NCBI GenBank assembly: GCA_000004985.1 | Contig: GG739205.1 | Length of the DNA stretch: 3,829 nucleotides | Strand: one strand, 5' to 3' | Source of the DNA: Naegleria gruberi | Lineage: Eukaryota | Shown: piece by piece, positions 2 through 3,829 of the stretch | Numbering within the stretch: the first letter of the stretch is position 1 | Layout: the number at the start of each line of letters is the position of its first letter | The notes under the pieces: generated by a model | Databases searched by the model: none | What the model saw: only the letters and a program-made list of their open reading frames with translations | Told to the model about the DNA's origin: nothing | Position numbers and translations under genes: made by a program

Positions 2-334
2 CCAATTTCAATACTAAAATCATACATGGATTTGGTTAGGAATTTCAAAGATGCTGAGTCCCCATTATTTTCCTTCGAAAACGACAAATTCTTTGATTCA
101 GATGGTATTTCAAAGATACTAAAGAATGCAGTGGGTATAGTAGATCAAGGCGTAACAGTCTCAGGTCACAGCCTTAGAATAGGTGCTATCACAGAAGGAC
201 TCAGAAAGGGTATGTCTACAACTGATCTAATGGTCGGTGCAAGACATAAAAAGGAAAAAAGTTTATTTCCTTACCTTAGATCTGAAGGCCTAGCTGGCAA
301 GAATTTCACTAACACTCTATTTTCTCTGGACTAA
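2..334 (+). CDS. 3' (C-terminal) part of a tyrosine site-specific recombinase (phage-integrase family catalytic domain). It is 5'-incomplete: the frame is open back to the window edge at position 2, and the first in-frame ATG is at 26. The stop is TAA at 332-334.
   Basis: The translation contains SGHSLRIGAIT, with the box II His-x-x-Arg at H48/R51 of the 102-aa ORF. H74 sits 23 residues after R51, which is the usual His/Trp III position. The candidate catalytic Y83 lies in PYLRS, 9 residues after H74 and 32 after R51. This R-to-H-to-Y spacing matches XerD-like tyrosine recombinases. The frame upstream of the ATG (PISILKSY) is open to position 2 and stays homologous to the region upstream of ORF2. 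GC is about 40% here against about 20% in the flanks. Confidence 0.7.
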   Translation, partial: PISILKSYMDLVRNFKDAESPLFSFENDKFFDSDGISKILKNAVGIVDQGVTVSGHSLRIGAITEGLRKGMSTTDLMVGARHKKEKSLFPYLRSEGLAGKNFTNTLFSLD

Positions 335-382
335 CCCATTGGTTTATCAACGAAATTCTTTATTGTTTTATTTGGAGAAATA
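334..382 (+). repeat. Direct repeat A1, 49 bp: ACCCATTGGTTTATCAACGAAATTCTTTATTGTTTTATTTGGAGAAATA. It is a perfect copy of 1009-1057.
   Basis: I compared the two copies by eye and they match 49/49. The first base is the last base of ORF1's TAA stop. Flanking sequence diverges immediately on both sides (…CTA|A vs …TCT|A on the left, TGG vs AAC on the right). Confidence 0.9.
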
Positions 383-461
383 TGGCTAGTTGCGAGGAAC
401 GATGCAACGTTAGTATTTCGACAAATTGTAAACAATAAAATTGAGTTGATAAATAATTTTT

Positions 462-532
462 ATGCTCAAAAAAATTAAGAAACATGGTAAACACACCAAG
501 CAAAATCATTGCTGACCCACCCACCCATTCCC
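462..532 (+). repeat. C-element copy 1. It has a 5' ATGCTCAAAAAAA box, a variable middle, and a 3' C-rich end CCCACCCACCCATTCCC. The opposite strand of that end reads GGGAATGGGTGGGTGGG, a four-tract G-quadruplex motif.
   Basis: It shares both of its ends with 1581-1643 and with 3581-3625 (minus strand). It lies 80 bp to the right of A1. It is followed by TTAATTTCATC and then an 8-3-8 palindrome AAGAATTC-CTT-GAATTCTT (544-562). Confidence 0.75.
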
Positions 533-836
533 TTAATTTCATCAAGAATTCCTTGAATTCTTTCAAATAGTCCTTCACTCCTTGAGTGTTTTTTCCTATT
601 TGTCTTTTAGTTTGATCTTGGTAAGTGATCCTTCTAAGGATGCAGGATTTGTATTACCTTGTGATACAATAATTTTTATTTCTAACTAACATCATTTGAA
701 TAATTCGAAATATGCTCGTAAAGTAAGCCAGATTTATTTTTTCAAAAAATATTTCTGATGGAAATTACCAGGCATTTTTTTACAAGCAATTCACTAGTTA
801 AAATAGAGAACTTTAATGGATTGGAGTTTTTACCGA

Positions 837-861
837 TTTTTTCCTGCAATGCAGGTTTTTT
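837..861. other. Short GC hairpin CCTGC-aat-GCAGG (843-855) flanked by T6 on both sides. It looks like a weak bidirectional terminator.
   Basis: The sequence is TTTTTT-CCTGCAATGCAGG-TTTTTT. The stem is only 5 bp with a 3-nt loop. Confidence 0.3.
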
Positions 862-1008
862 ATAGGGGAGTTGTTCTACTTCAATCTCGATTTTGTAAAC
901 AACTTTATTAACTCGGGACAATGCTGAATAAAGTCAATGACCTAAAAGGCAACATTTCCGAGCAACATACCTCATCCTTTGGATGAAGAATATGTTGAGT
1001 GAGCTTCT

Positions 1009-1057
1009 ACCCATTGGTTTATCAACGAAATTCTTTATTGTTTTATTTGGAGAAATA
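1009..1057 (+). repeat. Direct repeat A2, 49 bp, a perfect copy of 334-382. Its last two bases are part of the in-frame TAA (1056-1058) that truncates the ORF2 homology.
   Basis: It is identical over 49 bp to 334-382. It lies 64 bp upstream of the ORF2 ATG. Recombinase-homologous coding sequence begins 1 bp after it, at 1059. Confidence 0.9.
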
Positions 1058-1121
1058 AACTCCTATTGAACCATATCGAGGAAATAAGAAATACTGTCCA
1101 GTTTATAACCTTAGAAGATAC

Positions 1122-1430
1122 ATGGACTATGTTAAACATATTAAGGAAGACGATTCTCCATTATTTTCGTTGATGTTTGATGAATATTTCACTCCTACTC
1201 AAATTTCTAATATTATTTCAAGCTCCATGAGCTCTATTGGTGTTCAAAACACTTCAGGCCATAGCCTTCGTATAAGTGCAGCTACTGAGCTGGCTTCTAA
1301 GGGTGTGTCTCAATCTGTGATTGAGACTGCTGGTAATTGGGTGCCTAATTCAAAAGCTAGATTGAGATATCAACGTAGAATTGGCCTAGCTACTCATGGT
1401 TTAACTACTTCTATTATGAGAACTGATTAA
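1122..1430 (+). CDS. Second, diverged paralogous copy of the tyrosine-recombinase C-terminal catalytic segment (102 codons, TAA stop at 1428-1430). It appears 5'-truncated: protein-level homology to ORF1 continues upstream to about 1059 and is ended by an in-frame TAA at 1056-1058. It may be a gene fragment or pseudogene, or a terminal exon.
   Basis: The translation contains SGHSLRISAATELASKGVSQSVIETAGNWVPNSKARLRYQRR. This gives H47-x-x-R50, then W73 at the His/Trp position 23 residues after the Arg (Trp occupies this position in Cre, Flp and many eukaryotic YRs). Y83 follows 10 residues later in the motif RLRYQR. The ORF is collinear with ORF1 over all 102 residues at roughly 36% identity and ends on the same C-terminal ...D. 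The upstream in-frame translation CPVYNLRRYMDYV aligns with ORF1's PISILKSYMDLV. The box I Arg and Lys regions that should lie further N-terminal are not present before the stop. Confidence 0.55.
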   Translation: MDYVKHIKEDDSPLFSLMFDEYFTPTQISNIISSSMSSIGVQNTSGHSLRISAATELASKGVSQSVIETAGNWVPNSKARLRYQRRIGLATHGLTTSIMRTD

Positions 1431-1458
1431 CTATATATATTTATTATTTACTAAGGAC

Positions 1459-1510
1459 TAATCCATTTGTCTTAATTTATTATTTTATTATTTTGTGATT
1501 TTAAAAACAT
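1459..1510 (+). repeat. Direct repeat B1, 52 bp: TAATCCATTTGTCTTAATTTATTATTTTATTATTTTGTGATTTTAAAAACAT. It is a perfect copy of 2052-2103.
   Basis: It matches 2052-2103 at 52/52. It begins 28 bp after the ORF2 stop. It resembles the A repeat at roughly 60-65% identity (CCATTGGTTTATCAA vs CCATTTGTCTTAATT, and TTTATTGTTTTATTTGG vs TTTATTATTTTGTGATT), which suggests a diverged homologue. Confidence 0.9.
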
Positions 1511-1580
1511 GGGAGTTCTGAACATGGTGAAGAACTAGTGTGTTTTTATACAAAATTATTAAAATATTATTTTAAAAATT

Positions 1581-1643
1581 ATGCTCAAAAAATAGTCTCA
1601 ACATCATGTCATCATTAAGGCAAAGTCCCACCCATACCCACCC
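1581..1643 (+). repeat. C-element copy 2. It starts ATGCTCAAAAAA and ends TCCCACCCATACCCACCC. The complement of that end is GGGTGGGTATGGGTGGG, a G4 motif with loops of 1, 3 and 1 nt.
   Basis: The 5' box and 3' C-rich end are the same as in copy 1, and TTAATT follows in both. It lies 70 bp to the right of B1. This mirrors the A1-to-C1 arrangement. Confidence 0.75.
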
Positions 1644-1971
1644 TTAATTAGTATTTACAATTTTTCAGCCTTTATTTCGCTCATTAGCACCCAGTAAGTG
1701 GGCTAATTTCAGAGTGCGGCTGTGTACATTCAAGATGTGCAATTTTTACATTTATTCACTAACTTATTTTTTGGATGACAGTTTCTAATAGATTCGAATC
1801 ATTTTATTTTTCATTCCATTTGTTTCAGAAAATTCATATAGATTTTTATATATTAATGGTGATTTTAGGAACAGGTTTTACAATTTATTCACATACTCTA
1901 TGTTTTTTCTTATCTTTAGCTTCAAAACTATCGATAAGTTTTTCATAATTTTGAGACTTTAATTTCTAGGG

Positions 1972-2008
1972 ACCTGCTAAATAAAGATTTATATCCTTTA
2001 AAGCAGGT
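1972..2008. other. Stem-loop with a 7-bp stem ACCTGCT/AGCAGGT and a 23-nt AT-rich loop. The 5' arm is part of the motif GGACCTGCTAAATAAAG, which recurs inverted at 3000-3017 as GGACCTGCTGAATAAAGC on the minus strand.
   Basis: The inverted repeat is read directly. The second motif copy matches at 17/18. Both contain AATAAA. Confidence 0.3.
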
Positions 2009-2051
2009 TCCAAGGTTGATTCACCATATGGTGTCTCAATCCTTGAGCTTT

Positions 2052-2103
2052 TAATCCATTTGTCTTAATTTATTATTTTATTATTTTGTGATTTTAAAAA
2101 CAT
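2052..2103 (+). repeat. Direct repeat B2, 52 bp, a perfect copy of 1459-1510.
   Basis: It is identical over 52 bp. Its left flank (CTTGAGCTTT|TA) resembles the left flank of A2 (TTGAGTGAGCTTCT|A). This indicates that the A1..A2 and B1..B2 units are homologous as whole units. Confidence 0.9.
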
Positions 2104-2900
2104 ATAATTTGAAAAATTTATCAAGTGTTGTAGTTAAAATTTAATTTGAGTGTAATAAATCTTTATATGAAAAGCTATAAAAAGTACTTTCTTTATTAGA
2201 GATCAAGTTATCGGCGTTAATTGTCTTAAAAATCAATGTTGTTAAACAACTTCAATCATATTTATTAGAATCTTGATGATACAATTTTTTAGACATACCA
2301 TGTTTACCATTTAATATCGAGTAGTAAAAATATGTAAATTAAAAAAAGGAAAAAATGTTGAGTTTTGGTATTTTTTTAAAAAATGTTTTTTTGAAAAAAA
2401 TTTCGATAAAAACTAGAAATTTATTAGTATTTCAATGAAAAATACGAATTTTCATACATGCGTTGGTGGGATATGTTTGTCATATTAGATATTTAATAAA
2501 AATAAAATAAAAATTTTCGCATGTAAATATATATATATATATATACATCCGAAAAAATTTTTGTTGAAAGTTGGTTTATAAGATGGTGGTTAAATTGGTT
2601 TATCTGAAAAATCATTTAAAAGTGATTTAAATATAAAGATAATGAAATTAATTGAAAATTAAGAAGCTAAAATAAATTTTCAAAAATTTATCGATTTGAA
2701 ATTTAGAAAAGCTTAACAAAGTAATATATAAAATATAAAAAACCATTAATTTTTAAAAATCTTCTAAAGTTGGTATTATCATTATGAAGATTATTGATTG
2801 GAAGTAATAATCTTTATGGTAAATCCAAAGAAAATGAATTCAAAGAAAGAACAAACTTTCTAAAAATATTACAAAAACACTGTTATGTTTCTTAAAAGAA
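2104..2900. repeat. Low-complexity A/T homopolymer-rich tract. It contains many A5-8 and T5-8 runs and a reiterated AAAAAATGTT-like motif at 2345-2400. No ORFs are present.
   Basis: Composition is roughly 85% A+T. Stop codons are dense in all six frames. It follows repeat B2 immediately. Confidence 0.6.
2527..2545. repeat. (AT)n dinucleotide microsatellite of about 9.5 units.
   Basis: The sequence is atatatatatatatatata. A shorter (TA)4 run lies at 1433-1440. Confidence 0.9.
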
Positions 2901-3111
2901 AACCAACAATAAATAAACTAATAGATATAAAGCTCACACTACAACTTCTACCTATTCTTAGGTAGTTTGTAGCCTGGTTACTGCTGTTTTTAGGCATTAA
3001 GCTTTATTCAGCAGGTCCAGAAATTAAATAAACTAATCAATACAATCATACTATGATTTCTTAACAAAAAGCAAAAACTAAACTAAATTAAAGCAATCTG
3101 ACAATAAACCA

Positions 3112-3134
3112 AGTTGTTTTTTGGAGAAACAACT
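3112..3134. other. Hairpin with an 8-bp stem (AGTTGTTT / AAACAACT) and a 7-nt loop TTTGGAG. The loop and 3' side resemble the right end of the A repeat plus A2's flank (TTGTTTTATTTGGAGAAATAAACTCC vs TTGTTTTTTGGAGAAACAACTCCC).
   Basis: The inverted repeat is read directly from the sequence. The similarity to A2 and its flank is about 21/26 after allowing one 2-bp indel. Confidence 0.35.
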
Positions 3135-3141
3135 CCCATAT

Positions 3142-3170
3142 AAAAAAACCTACTCTTGTAGGAAAAAAAA
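3142..3170. other. Short hairpin CCTAC-tctt-GTAGG (3149-3162) flanked by A7 and A8. Its architecture and stem sequence resemble the 843-855 hairpin (CCTRC...GYAGG).
   Basis: The sequence is AAAAAAA-CCTACTCTTGTAGG-AAAAAAAA. The 13-mer AAAAAACCTACTC recurs at 3198-3210. Confidence 0.3.
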
Positions 3171-3273
3171 TCGGTAAAAACCAAAAAGTTAAGAATTAAA
3201 AAACCTACTCAACCGTCTTGACACTTACGAATCAAAACGAGAATGAGAAAAGAGGTATGTTCAGTACATATTG

Positions 3274-3309
3274 CCTTACTAATAGTAAGGGAAAGGTATC
3301 AGATACCTT
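3274..3309. promoter_or_regulatory. Two adjacent perfect 17-bp palindromes: CCTTACTA-A-TAGTAAGG (3274-3290) and AAGGTATC-A-GATACCTT (3293-3309). Each has 8-bp arms and a 1-bp centre. Candidate dimeric protein-binding sites.
   Basis: Both are perfect inverted repeats when read by eye. They are separated by 2 bp. Both arms carry CCTT/AAGG ends. They lie within about 30 bp of the phased direct repeats at 3335-3371. Confidence 0.5.
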
Positions 3310-3334
3310 CTAATCAACATAAAATTGATCTGTC

Positions 3335-3371
3335 GGTTTTAGATCACCAACAATTGGTTTTAGATCACCAA
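3335..3371. repeat. Two perfect 16-bp direct repeats, GGTTTTAGATCACCAA, at 3335-3350 and 3356-3371. The 21-bp phasing equals two helical turns, which is iteron-like.
   Basis: The two copies match exactly. Each contains GATC. They lie directly downstream of the twin palindromes. Confidence 0.8.
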
Positions 3372-3580
3372 TCATGATAAAAAACATCAATAAATGATGT
3401 CAAATATCAAATAATAATACAAAGATAAAAAGATGATAACAATCATCTTTCAATAATACAAATAGAGTGAAATCTTTCAATCAATTGAGAAAATATTTGA
3501 GGATTGATTAAAAAATCACATTCTAAAGTATTAAGGACAAAGGTTAGAACCTTTGATTTGAATAAACTAATAATAATAGA

Positions 3581-3625
3581 GGGTGGGCAAGGGTGGGACC
3601 ATAGTATGACAATTTTTTTGAGCAT
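3581..3625 (-). repeat. C-element copy 3, in inverted orientation. The minus strand reads ATGCTCAAAAAAATTGTCATACTATGGTCCCACCCTTGCCCACCC. The plus strand carries GGGTGGGCAAGGGTGGG, a G4 motif.
   Basis: It has the same 12-bp 5' box and the same CCCACCC-N3-CCCACCC end, with a shorter middle. It is followed on the minus strand by an 8-2-8 palindrome (plus strand 3538-3555, CAAAGGTT-AG-AACCTTTG). Confidence 0.7.
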
Positions 3626-3681
3626 ACTTTCTATTATTAGTTTATTCAATTGTTGTTTTCAAGAAACACTACTTTATCTCA

Positions 3682-3829
3682 GTAAACTTCGATAAGAACA
3701 GAAATATCAAAGAATGTGGAAGAGATAAGGTAGTTTAAACCCTTCTCAGCGTAAGAACTTGTAATACTACTCAATCCGCTTCTATGGAATAGGTTGAAAA
3801 ATAGCAAAAGATAAACGCCACCAATATTT
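3682..3829 (-). CDS. Possible 3' end of a minus-strand gene that runs off the right edge of the window. There are 49 open codons ending in TGA (plus-strand 3679-3681). The product is unknown.
   Basis: An open 49-codon stretch is unusual in this stop-rich AT background. Local G+C is about 38%, higher than the surrounding non-coding DNA. The translation is ...NIGGVYLLLFFNLFHRSGLSSITSSYAEKGLNYLISSTFFDISVLIEVY*. I recognise no motif in it. Confidence 0.2.

What the first reader, a model, noticed from the sequence alone, without database searches (positions are those of the whole stretch)
334..2103. Each recombinase copy is followed by its own perfect direct-repeat pair, and the two repeat families have diverged from each other
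The A pair (49/49 identical, 675 bp apart) follows ORF1. The B pair (52/52 identical, 593 bp apart) follows ORF2. A and B look like diverged homologues at about 60-65% identity. The left flanks of A2 and B2 are also related (TTGAG..GCTTCTA vs TTGAGCTTTTA), and each unit carries a C element 70-80 bp inside its left repeat. The two modules are therefore old duplicates, yet within each module the repeat pair is perfectly identical. Three explanations could give perfect intra-pair identity against diverged inter-module identity. First, the repeats are functional recombination sites (attL/attR-like or excision sites) co-evolving with their adjacent recombinase paralog. Second, they are split direct repeats of a YR-type element (Ngaro/PAT/DIRS-like), which regenerates repeats at every replication. 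Third, there is ongoing gene conversion. In all three cases the repeats would be the cognate substrate of the adjacent enzyme, which is the most interesting structure in the window.
Basis: partly seen in the sequence, partly recalled or inferred. Interest (0 to 1): 0.75.

Follow-up and report, generated by a model that had tools for sequence, protein, structure and literature searches.

The report
Retrotransposon tail repeats in Naegleria
The two perfect repeat pairs are the normal "split direct repeats" at the tail end of two different tyrosine-recombinase retrotransposons of the amoeba Naegleria gruberi, one lying directly against the broken recombinase gene of the other. It is a real but already well-known kind of mobile-element structure.

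Summary
In detail: 334-382 = 1009-1057 (49/49) and 1459-1510 = 2052-2103 (52/52). The window is a whole 3,829-bp Naegleria gruberi contig. Both "recombinase copies" are only C-terminal pieces of tyrosine recombinases (34% identical). ORF2 is cut off exactly where the second A repeat ends.

In relatives, this recombinase is the last gene of a gag / RT-RNaseH-methyltransferase-like / recombinase retrotransposon. In distant full-length relatives the recombinase is followed by short-long-short repeats, and the long segment occurs again at the 5' end. This is the published A1-[ORFs]-B1A2B2 split-direct-repeat layout.

A third, inverted copy (2885-3697) is a "solo AB" remnant.

The "old duplicate modules" idea is not: these are two element families lying end to end. 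Perfect identity over about 50 bp only means the insertions are young.

One extra feature co-varies across seven junctions tested: the short|long junction lies in a nested palindrome. I did not find it described in the papers I searched.

Verdict: new member of a known kind (PAT-like, DIRS order), modest interest.

The parts
2..334 (+). Element 1: C-terminal 110 codons of its tyrosine recombinase (ORF cut by the contig start). It contains GHSLRIG and the catalytic-Tyr region LFPYLR.
   Evidence: Translation. Profile match 1.2e-45 to the recombinase alignment. Alignment.
334..382 (+). It begins on the last base of the stop codon.
   Evidence: 49/49 identical to 1009-1057. The same ACCCATT start overlapping or following the stop codon is seen in L079, L007, L003, L004, L008 and L009.
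383..1008 (+). Element 1 long repeat segment (A2), 626 bp. It is expected to be a copy of the element's 5' terminal repeat A1, which lies outside this contig.
   Evidence: Homologous along its length to 1511-2051, to the inverted 2930-3697 and to L009 603-1141, with islands at fixed offsets. The A1=A2 relation is shown only in distant relatives L010, L011, L018 and L075.
1009..1057 (+). This is the 3' end of element 1.
   Evidence: Identity. Sequence from 1059 onward is the recombinase coding sequence of a different element.
343..453 (+). Nested palindrome across the B1|A2 junction of element 1. Outer arms are 343-382 and 414-453; the inner small hairpin lies within 383-413.
   Evidence: Inverted repeat I1. 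DNA fold -20.7 kcal/mol, z = -5.0. 33/42 match, 0 of 500 shuffles as good.
462..538 (+). Element 1 'C element': invariant ATGCTCAAAAAA (462-473) plus a CCCACCCACCC tract (516-526).
   Evidence: The 12-mer lies at +71 to +86 from the long-segment start in five lineages.
915..933 (+). Conserved island GGGACAATGCTGAATAAAG containing AATAAA, 82 nt before the end of the long segment. It is a candidate polyadenylation signal (inferred).
   Evidence: the same island lies 72-82 nt from the end in el1, el2, the solo copy and L009.
1059..1430 (+). Element 2: 5'-truncated tyrosine recombinase (last 123 codons, from ...TPIEPY). The frame is closed by a stop inside the preceding repeat.
   Evidence: PF00589; 100% identical to a N. 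gruberi predicted protein; relatives continue about 180 residues further upstream.
1459..1510 (+).
   Evidence: 52/52 identical to 2052-2103.
1511..2051 (+). Element 2 long repeat segment (A2), 541 bp. It carries ATGCTCAAAAAA at 1581-1592, CCCACCC at 1627-1643 and the AATAAA island at 1968-1986.
2052..2103 (+). Element 2 short repeat, terminal copy (B2). This is the 3' end of element 2. Beyond it G+C falls to about 19-20%.
1471..1575 (+). Nested palindrome across the B1|A2 junction of element 2. The left arm ends at about 1509, the inner hairpin is AGTTCT-N11-AGAACT, and the right arm is 1541-1575.
   Evidence: Fold z = -2.5. 30/39 match, 3 of 500 shuffles as good.
2885..3697 (-). Solo 'AB' remnant of a third element in inverted orientation: long segment about 3697 down to 2930, then one short repeat 2929 down to 2885. 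No short repeat and no recombinase lie upstream of it.
   Evidence: Module homology. No internal short repeat: score 13 versus shuffle mean 15.7. Its inverted copy matches only the terminal short repeat, 35/43. No recombinase remnant at 3745-3829. Islands. Solo AB repeats are described in PMC8547959.

Best explanation
The window holds the 3' ends of two tyrosine-recombinase (YR) retrotransposons of the DIRS order, both with PAT-type 'split direct repeats', plus a solo remnant of a third.

In such elements the layout is A1-[gag, RT-RNaseH-MT, YR]-B1-A2-B2. The 626 bp between them is A2, the second copy of that element's 5' terminal repeat. The 'B pair' and its 541-bp spacer are the same parts of element 2. 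Element 2 belongs to a different family and is 5'-truncated exactly where element 1 ends.

How it works (published model for this architecture, not shown here):
- The element is transcribed into a sub-genomic RNA and reverse-transcribed.
- The internal B1|A2 junction lets the complete ends be rebuilt and joined into a circle whose B2|A1 junction has the same sequence as B1|A2.
- The element's own recombinase integrates that circle.
- Because both copies of each repeat are rebuilt from one template at every cycle, a young insertion has identical pairs, while different families differ.

Inferred from this analysis: the conserved islands in the long segment (ATGCTCAAAAAA near its start, AATAAA near its end) are probably promoter/leader and polyadenylation signals. 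The junction lies in a conserved nested palindrome that probably serves circle closure or recombinase binding.
For: 1. Origin. The window is a complete N. gruberi contig.

2. The ORFs. ORF1 and ORF2 are C-terminal YR fragments. ORF2 starts right after the second A repeat, whereas relatives (L001, P0004) continue about 180 residues upstream.

3. Element type. In relatives whose YRs are 42-80% identical to the full-length relative P0004 (P0004 is itself 65% identical to ORF2), the YR ORF overlaps by 4 bp a 640-670-aa ORF. That ORF has RVT_1 (E about 1e-23), weak RNase H and a Dam-like MT region, and is preceded by a gag-like ORF. The pol ORF aligns over 599 aa, including the MT region, with that of L075 (E 2e-78).

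4. Same tail in another lineage. L009 has the YR stop, 18 bp, a 72-nt repeat starting ACCCATTAGT, about 540 bp with the same islands, then the same 72-nt repeat.

5. Full layout in distant relatives. L010, L011, L018 and L075 have B1 (53-99 nt), A2 and B2 after the YR with 562-666 bp spacing. The start of A2 is repeated 5.2-5.4 kb upstream as A1. In the three tested, the pol has RT plus MT above Pfam's threshold, and L075 has a CCHC gag.

6. Long segment used as a terminus. The solo copy at 2885-3697 and the minus strand of L001 both start with the long segment and have no short repeat in front.

7. Literature. The SDR layout A1-[ORFs]-B1A2B2, repeats at 100% identity in some copies, solo AB repeats, and DIRS-1's preference for inserting into other copies of itself are all described.
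Against: - No element in the window reaches its 5' end. No contig of the close Naegleria-type family does either, so A1 = A2 is shown only in relatives whose YR is 23-30% identical.
- The RT/MT linkage comes from metagenome and sequencing-run (Logan) contigs, not from this contig. N. gruberi's own genome could not be searched with these tools.
- The MT-like domain is below Pfam's threshold in the close relatives (19.9-25.1 bits against a cut-off of 28.1).
- Whether element 1 inserted into element 2, or the two were joined some other way, cannot be decided without the sequence upstream of the contig.
- The replication mechanism is a published model and was not tested here.
Confidence: 0.85

Rival explanations
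1. The short repeats are chromosomal excision or inversion sites (attL/attR-like) for the adjacent recombinase. They would co-evolve with it in place, and the 0.6-kb segment would be a cassette that the enzyme cuts out and re-inserts.
For: Each pair sits directly after a recombinase gene and is in direct orientation. L001 has a single short repeat after its recombinase followed by unrelated sequence. That could be the product of deletion between B1 and B2.
Against: - Both recombinase genes in the window are fragments, and ORF2 lacks its N-terminal about 180 residues including the box I arginine, so at least that copy cannot be made here.
- The 0.6-kb segment is the element's 5' terminal repeat in full-length relatives, not a cassette.
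- The recombinase is the last gene of an RT-encoding element.
- The solo copy has no pair.
Confidence: 0.05
2. Ongoing gene conversion or selection at this locus keeps each pair identical while the two modules diverge.
For: There is perfect identity within pairs against about 60% identity between pairs.
Against: - Identity over about 50 bp is expected for any insertion younger than 1-2% divergence, so nothing needs explaining.
- The modules belong to different element families rather than to a diverging duplication.
- The older solo copy shows no maintained pair.
- The decayed copy L002 has lost part of its short repeat.
Confidence: 0.04
3. The elements are Ngaro-type (no methyltransferase) or DIRS1-type (inverted terminal repeats plus an internal complementary region) rather than PAT-type.
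For: - The MT-like region is below Pfam's threshold in the close relatives, and Ngaro elements also place B1A2B2 after the recombinase.
- Piednoel et al. assigned degenerate N. gruberi elements to DIRS1-like by tblastx.
- The end of the short repeat is also present as an inverted copy in the long segment. This gives the element subterminal inverted repeats that recall DIRS1.
Against: - A Dam-like hit occurs at the same place in 5 of 5 pol ORFs. That region aligns with the MT region of L075, which passes the threshold.
- The repeats after the recombinase are direct, not inverted, and A1/A2 are direct in the full-length relatives.
Confidence: 0.15
4. The repeats are low-complexity or satellite sequence, or an assembly artefact of a small repeat-rich scaffold.
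For: The contig is short, A+T-rich and made almost wholly of repeats.
Against: - Identity is confined to the 49- and 52-bp blocks, not spread across the unit.
- The same stop codon / short / long / short grammar, with different sequences, occurs in independent assemblies (L009, L079, L008, L003, L010, L018, L075).
Confidence: 0.01

Closest known systems
PAT-like elements (Pat1, Toc3, Kangaroo) of the DIRS order
   Same: - A tyrosine recombinase linked to RT-RNaseH and a Dam-like methyltransferase domain.
- Split direct repeats A1-[ORFs]-B1A2B2.
- Internal repeats downstream of a co-oriented recombinase.
- The gag-like ORF of the close relatives has no zinc knuckle, as in Toc3. Distant relative L075 has one, as in Pat1.
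   Different: - The host is a heterolobosean, and N. gruberi elements were previously filed as DIRS1-like.
- The MT domain is weak in the close relatives.
- A1 has not been seen for this family.
- A conserved nested palindrome spans the B|A junction, and I did not find this described.
Ngaro and VIPER retrotransposons
   Same: The same A1-[ORFs]-B1A2B2 repeat layout with the recombinase as last gene. Solo AB remnants and insertion into other mobile elements are reported for Cafeteria Ngaros (PMC8547959).
   Different: Ngaro and VIPER lack the methyltransferase-like domain. Here it is present, weakly, in all pol ORFs examined.
DIRS-1 of Dictyostelium (DIRS1-like elements)
   Same: The same gene set (gag, RT-RNaseH-MT, YR). 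An internal copy of the terminal junction is used to rebuild full ends. It tends to insert into other copies of itself.
   Different: DIRS-1 has inverted terminal repeats and an internal complementary region. Here the repeats are direct.
LTR retrotransposons and solo LTRs
   Same: Repeats are regenerated at each replication cycle, so they are identical at insertion and their divergence dates the copy. Recombination between the long repeats leaves a solo remnant (2885-3697).
   Different: The integrase is a tyrosine recombinase, there is no target-site duplication, and one 'LTR' is split by the extra short repeat.

Membership tests
DIRS order (tyrosine-recombinase retrotransposons) | Encodes a tyrosine recombinase with the catalytic R...HxxR...Y residues | tested here: met
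   PF00589 hit for ORF2. GHSLRI and the Tyr region are present in both ORFs. The box I Arg is present in full-length relatives. Both window copies are fragments.
DIRS order (tyrosine-recombinase retrotransposons) | Recombinase linked to a reverse transcriptase / RNase H gene in one element | tested here: met
   Not in the window itself. In relatives L004, L005, L006 and L003, the pol ORF with RVT_1 (E down to 4e-27) overlaps the YR ORF by 4 bp.
PAT-like elements | Methyltransferase-like (Dam-like) domain after RT-RNaseH | tested here: inconclusive
   PF05869 at E 2e-5 to 6e-4 (19.9-25.1 bits, cut-off 28.1) in 5 of 5 pol ORFs of close relatives. The region aligns with L075's, which passes the cut-off.
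PAT-like elements | Split direct repeats: B1 = B2 flanking A2 at the 3' end | tested here: met
   49/49 and 52/52 pairs directly after the recombinase stops. The same layout is seen in L009 (72/72) and in L010, L011, L018 and L075.
PAT-like elements | Split direct repeats: A1 at the 5' end identical to A2 | not testable with these tools
   No 5' end of this family is in the window or in any contig retrieved. It is met in distant relatives L010, L011, L018 and L075. Indirect support: the long segment starts without a short repeat in the solo copy and in L001.
Pat1-like subgroup | Zinc knuckle in Gag | tested here: not met
   No Pfam hit for the gag-like ORF of L004, and no CCHC pattern in the gag-like ORFs of L004 or L005. 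A zinc knuckle is present in distant relative L075. The close family is therefore Toc3-like in this respect.
Ngaro | No methyltransferase-like domain | tested here: inconclusive
   A weak but consistent Dam-like region argues against Ngaro.
DIRS1-like | Inverted terminal repeats plus an internal complementary region | tested here: not met
   The repeats after the recombinase are direct, and A1/A2 are direct in full-length relatives. Only a 35-40-nt inverted copy of the short-repeat end lies inside the long segment.
Crypton (recombinase-only DNA transposon) | No reverse transcriptase; recombinase alone | tested here: not met
   Relatives carry gag-like and RT ORFs immediately upstream.

The most novel reading that the evidence does not exclude
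The short|long junction, which has the same sequence as the circle junction B2|A1, lies in a conserved nested palindrome.

Structure: the last 35-40 nt of the short repeat are repeated in inverted form 30-50 nt inside the long segment, and the stretch in between folds into a small hairpin. The arms differ in sequence between lineages, but each matches its own partner.

Proposed function: in a linear single-stranded cDNA, the 3' end (B2) could pair with the subterminal part of the 5' end (A1). This would place the two termini side by side for ligation. It would be a built-in splint doing for split-repeat elements what the internal complementary region does for DIRS-1. Alternatively, the palindrome could be the dyad-symmetric binding site of the recombinase, with cleavage at the arm boundary.

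I did not find either idea described in the papers I could search.
Probability: 0.3. Interest if true: 0.55.

Novelty: new member of a known kind. Interest (0 to 1): 0.3.

Why it matters
The result explains an eye-catching structure as ordinary retrotransposon anatomy and prevents it being mistaken for a new recombination system.

It also gives usable annotation for a repeat-only N. gruberi scaffold: exact element ends, a junction between two elements, and a solo AB remnant.

It suggests that at least some N. gruberi recombinase retrotransposons are PAT-type with split direct repeats, rather than DIRS1-type as previously filed.

The conserved junction palindrome and the fixed-position islands are concrete, testable candidates for the cis-acting signals of these poorly understood elements (transcription start, polyadenylation, end joining, recombinase binding).

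Tried and rejected
- **'C element' as a small gene on the opposite strand.** Peptides like GW..VG...NFFEH recur. Rejected because the spacing between the two conserved motifs is 42, 34, 16 and 87 nt, so the frame is not kept, and there are no Pfam hits.
- **Third recombinase tail at 3745-3829 (minus strand).** It looked similar by eye, but a profile search with all filters off found nothing there.
- **Internal short repeat for the third module.** None was found, so I called it a solo AB.
- **Known RNA families.** Only sub-threshold microRNA-like hits on an (AT)n palindrome.
- **ORF1 as protein query.** No homologues were found by the word-indexed search.
- **Look-ups of the two N. gruberi proteins (P0001, P0127).** No record was found, so the N. 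gruberi genome itself could not be explored.
- **Scans of viral contigs and of bacterial/archaeal genomes.** These gave nothing, or only distant bacterial integrases.
- **5' terminal repeats in contigs that reach gag (L004, L005).** They start inside or just before gag and carry no long-segment islands.
- **RNAalifold on a MAFFT alignment of five junctions.** It recovered only the inner 16 pairs, 6 of them with compensatory changes, because indels misalign the outer arms. The own-versus-cross-lineage matrix is the better test.
- **Target-site rule.** I looked for a shared trinucleotide at element ends and flanks. With only three or four junctions, no rule could be drawn.
Full report
**What is in the sequence**

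The window is A+T-rich (19-38% G+C). It is an entire 3,829-bp contig of Naegleria gruberi: ORF2's product is 100% identical to a N. gruberi predicted protein whose longest contig is 3,829 bp.

The reported repeats are exact. 334-382 equals 1009-1057 (49/49, spacing 675). 1459-1510 equals 2052-2103 (52/52, spacing 593).

The two "recombinase copies" are only C-terminal parts of tyrosine recombinases. ORF1 runs off the left end of the contig. ORF2's frame opens at 1059, one base after the second A repeat, with a stop inside the repeat. They are 34% identical. ORF2 matches Pfam PF00589 at about the threshold. Both match a profile of the family at E 1e-45 to 1e-52.

**What kind of element**

An exhaustive HMMER search found full-length relatives of about 300 aa, including P0004, which is 65% identical to ORF2. 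These show that ORF2 lacks about 180 N-terminal residues, including the box I arginine.

On contigs carrying P0004 and its relatives (42-80% identical to P0004), the recombinase ORF overlaps by 4 bp a 640-670-aa ORF. That ORF has a clear reverse transcriptase domain (RVT_1, E about 1e-23), weak RNase H, and a Dam-like methyltransferase region. The Dam-like region is below Pfam's cut-off but present at the same place in all five pol ORFs. A gag-like ORF lies upstream. The pol ORF aligns over 599 residues, methyltransferase region included, with that of a distant relative whose Dam hit passes the cut-off.

So this recombinase is the last gene of a gag / RT-RNaseH-MT / YR retrotransposon of the DIRS order. 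Short-read contigs of these relatives stop 21-95 bp after the recombinase stop codon. Two of them (L003 and L009) stop exactly at the end of a short repeat. That is the behaviour expected at a repeat boundary.

**The repeats are split direct repeats**

The literature defines the termini of PAT-like, Ngaro and VIPER elements as A1 at the 5' end and B1, A2, B2 at the 3' end, with A1 = A2 and B1 = B2. It notes that some copies have 100% identical repeats.

A metagenome scan with the recombinase alignment returned two kinds of support:

- L009 (40% identical recombinase) has the same tail as the window. After the stop come 18 bp, a 72-nt repeat beginning ACCCATTAGT and ending GAAACATG, about 540 bp, then the same 72 nt again.
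- Four longer contigs of distant relatives (L010, L011, L018, L075) show the whole layout. There is a 53-99-nt pair with 562-666 bp spacing after the recombinase, and the sequence that follows B1 is repeated 5.2-5.4 kb upstream. The three examined carry RT plus a Dam-like domain above threshold, and L075 has a CCHC gag.

The 626-bp and 541-bp "spacers" are A2.

The long segments of element 1, element 2 and L009 share islands at fixed distances from their ends, although their middles vary in length and sequence:

- ATGCTCAAAAAA at +71 to +86 from the start
- CCCA(C/T)CC motifs after that
- a GGGACCTGCTNAATAAAG island 72-82 nt before the end
- TGAGCTT 7-11 nt before the end

**Why the two modules sit side by side**

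Element 1 ends at 1057, and the next bases are the middle of another element's recombinase gene. The two recombinases and the two repeat sets are too different to be a local duplication. They are two families lying end to end, most simply because one inserted into the other. The half of element 2 that would prove this lies outside the contig. DIRS-1 is known to insert preferentially into other DIRS-1 copies.

In L001, the start of a long segment in inverted orientation likewise abuts a truncated recombinase gene, with no short repeat between them.

**A third copy**

An inverted module lies at 2885-3697. It has the long segment with all islands and one short repeat at its far end. It has no short repeat in front (score below the shuffle mean) and no recombinase remnant beyond it. 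This is the "solo AB" expected from recombination between A1 and A2, as described for Cafeteria Ngaros.

**Perfect identity**

Over 49-52 bp, identity is expected for any insertion with less than about 1-2% divergence: the probability is 0.61 at 1% and 0.38 at 2%. No co-evolution or gene conversion is needed.

**An extra feature: a palindrome at the junction**

In every lineage, the last 35-40 nt of the short repeat recur as an inverted copy beginning 30-32 nt into the long segment (35-51 nt in the distant relatives). The stretch between forms a small hairpin.

- Folding as DNA gives z = -5.0 (element 1), -2.5 (element 2), -2.7 (L009), about -5 (L075, L018) and -4.3 (L010).
- L079 folds the same way. 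So does the solo copy's short-repeat end artificially joined to its long-segment start, at -20.8 kcal/mol.
- Each lineage's arm matches its own partner better than any other lineage's, apart from the near-identical pair L010/L011 (matrix). The pairing therefore co-varies.
- A text search of papers on these elements found no mention of a hairpin or palindrome. That is a limited search, not proof of novelty.

Two inferred roles are possible. The palindrome may bring the two ends of a linear single-stranded cDNA together for joining. Or it may be a dyad-symmetric recombinase site with cleavage at the arm boundary, which is where the element ends.

**Classification and limits**

By the structural criteria in PMC4157794, the family is PAT-like: methyltransferase-like domain, split direct repeats, co-oriented recombinase with the internal repeats after it. 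The close relatives lack a gag zinc knuckle, which is Toc3-like.

The weak points are:

- The methyltransferase hit is sub-threshold in the close relatives.
- No 5' end of the Naegleria-type family could be retrieved, so A1 = A2 is shown only in distant relatives.
- N. gruberi's genome could not be searched.
- Piednoel et al. reported degenerate DIRS1-like elements in N. gruberi. Whether they are the same family is unknown.

**Verdict**

This is a new member of a known kind, of modest interest. The junction palindrome is the one point worth a follow-up.

Noticed in passing
window 343-453 and 1471-1575; L009 558-677; L079 about 1667-1774; L075 5433-5575; L018 5306-5450: The short|long repeat junction lies in a conserved nested palindrome. 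An inverted copy of the short-repeat end sits about 30-50 nt into the long segment, with a small inner hairpin between. The arms co-vary between lineages. I did not find this described in the papers searched.
   Followed up: yes
It is a long segment plus one short repeat, with no upstream short repeat and no recombinase, so it is a solo AB remnant. It is longer (768 bp) than the other long segments.
   Followed up: yes
window 462-473, 1581-1592, 3614-3625 (minus); L009 688; L079 1774; L001 76 (minus): The 12-mer ATGCTCAAAAAA is invariant at +71 to +86 from the long-segment start in six lineages whose surroundings are only about 55-60% identical. CCCA(C/T)CC motifs follow it at variable distance. 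The function is unknown (promoter or leader element?).
   Followed up: partly
window 915-933, 1968-1986, 3002-3020 (minus); L009 1048-1066: A conserved island GGGAC(C)TGCTNAATAAAG lies 72-82 nt before the end of every long segment. It is a candidate polyadenylation signal. If so, transcripts would end before the terminal short repeat.
   Followed up: partly
L001 1-160 (minus strand), 390-392 and 717-819: On the minus strand, a long-segment start abuts a 5'-truncated recombinase gene with no short repeat between. That recombinase has an in-frame TAA. Its single short repeat (717-770) is followed by sequence unlike any long-segment start, which may reflect a B1xB2 deletion.
   Followed up: partly
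L002 1-770: A decayed copy of the element-2 type (89% identical) is interrupted within its recombinase gene by the 3' end of an unrelated ORF carrying a Cys/His-rich motif (CDSCQTAEDWTHVFSSC). This looked to me like the tail of a non-LTR (LINE-like) retrotransposon. Its short repeat is cut off after 39 nt.
   Followed up: no
window 3558-3575 / 3632-3649: A perfect 18-nt inverted repeat flanks the ATGCTCAAAAAA/CCCACCC region in the solo copy only. One arm is part of the inverted copy of the short repeat, and the other is an extra partial short-repeat-like sequence.
   Followed up: no
window 3335-3350 / 3356-3371: A perfect 16-nt tandem duplication (GGTTTTAGATCACCAA, 21-nt period) lies inside the solo copy's long segment, in a stretch absent from the other long segments.
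   Followed up: no
window 2104-2884, especially 2504-2565: A very A+T-rich spacer (about 19% G+C) separates element 2 from the solo copy. It contains an (AT)n tract inside a 33-nt palindrome, which gives only sub-threshold microRNA-like Rfam hits.
   Followed up: no
window 3698-3702 and 2880-2884: The bases flanking the solo copy are reverse complements of each other (minus strand: ...CTGTT | element | AACAG...). Joined, they would form the palindrome CTGTTAACAG. This may be the original target site or may be chance.
   Followed up: no
L075 1945-4659, L018 1768-4491, L010 4590-7241: In the G+C-richer distant relatives, the recombinase reading frame stays open for about 600 codons upstream, overlapping the pol ORF in another frame. 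This explains database 'proteins' of about 900 aa (P0021, P0037) that have a recombinase only at the C-terminus.
   Followed up: no
L003 end (2779), L009 end (1213): These two short-read metagenome contigs end exactly at the last base of a short repeat (…AACATG). That is the branch point expected where B1 continues into A2 and B2 continues into flanking DNA.
   Followed up: partly
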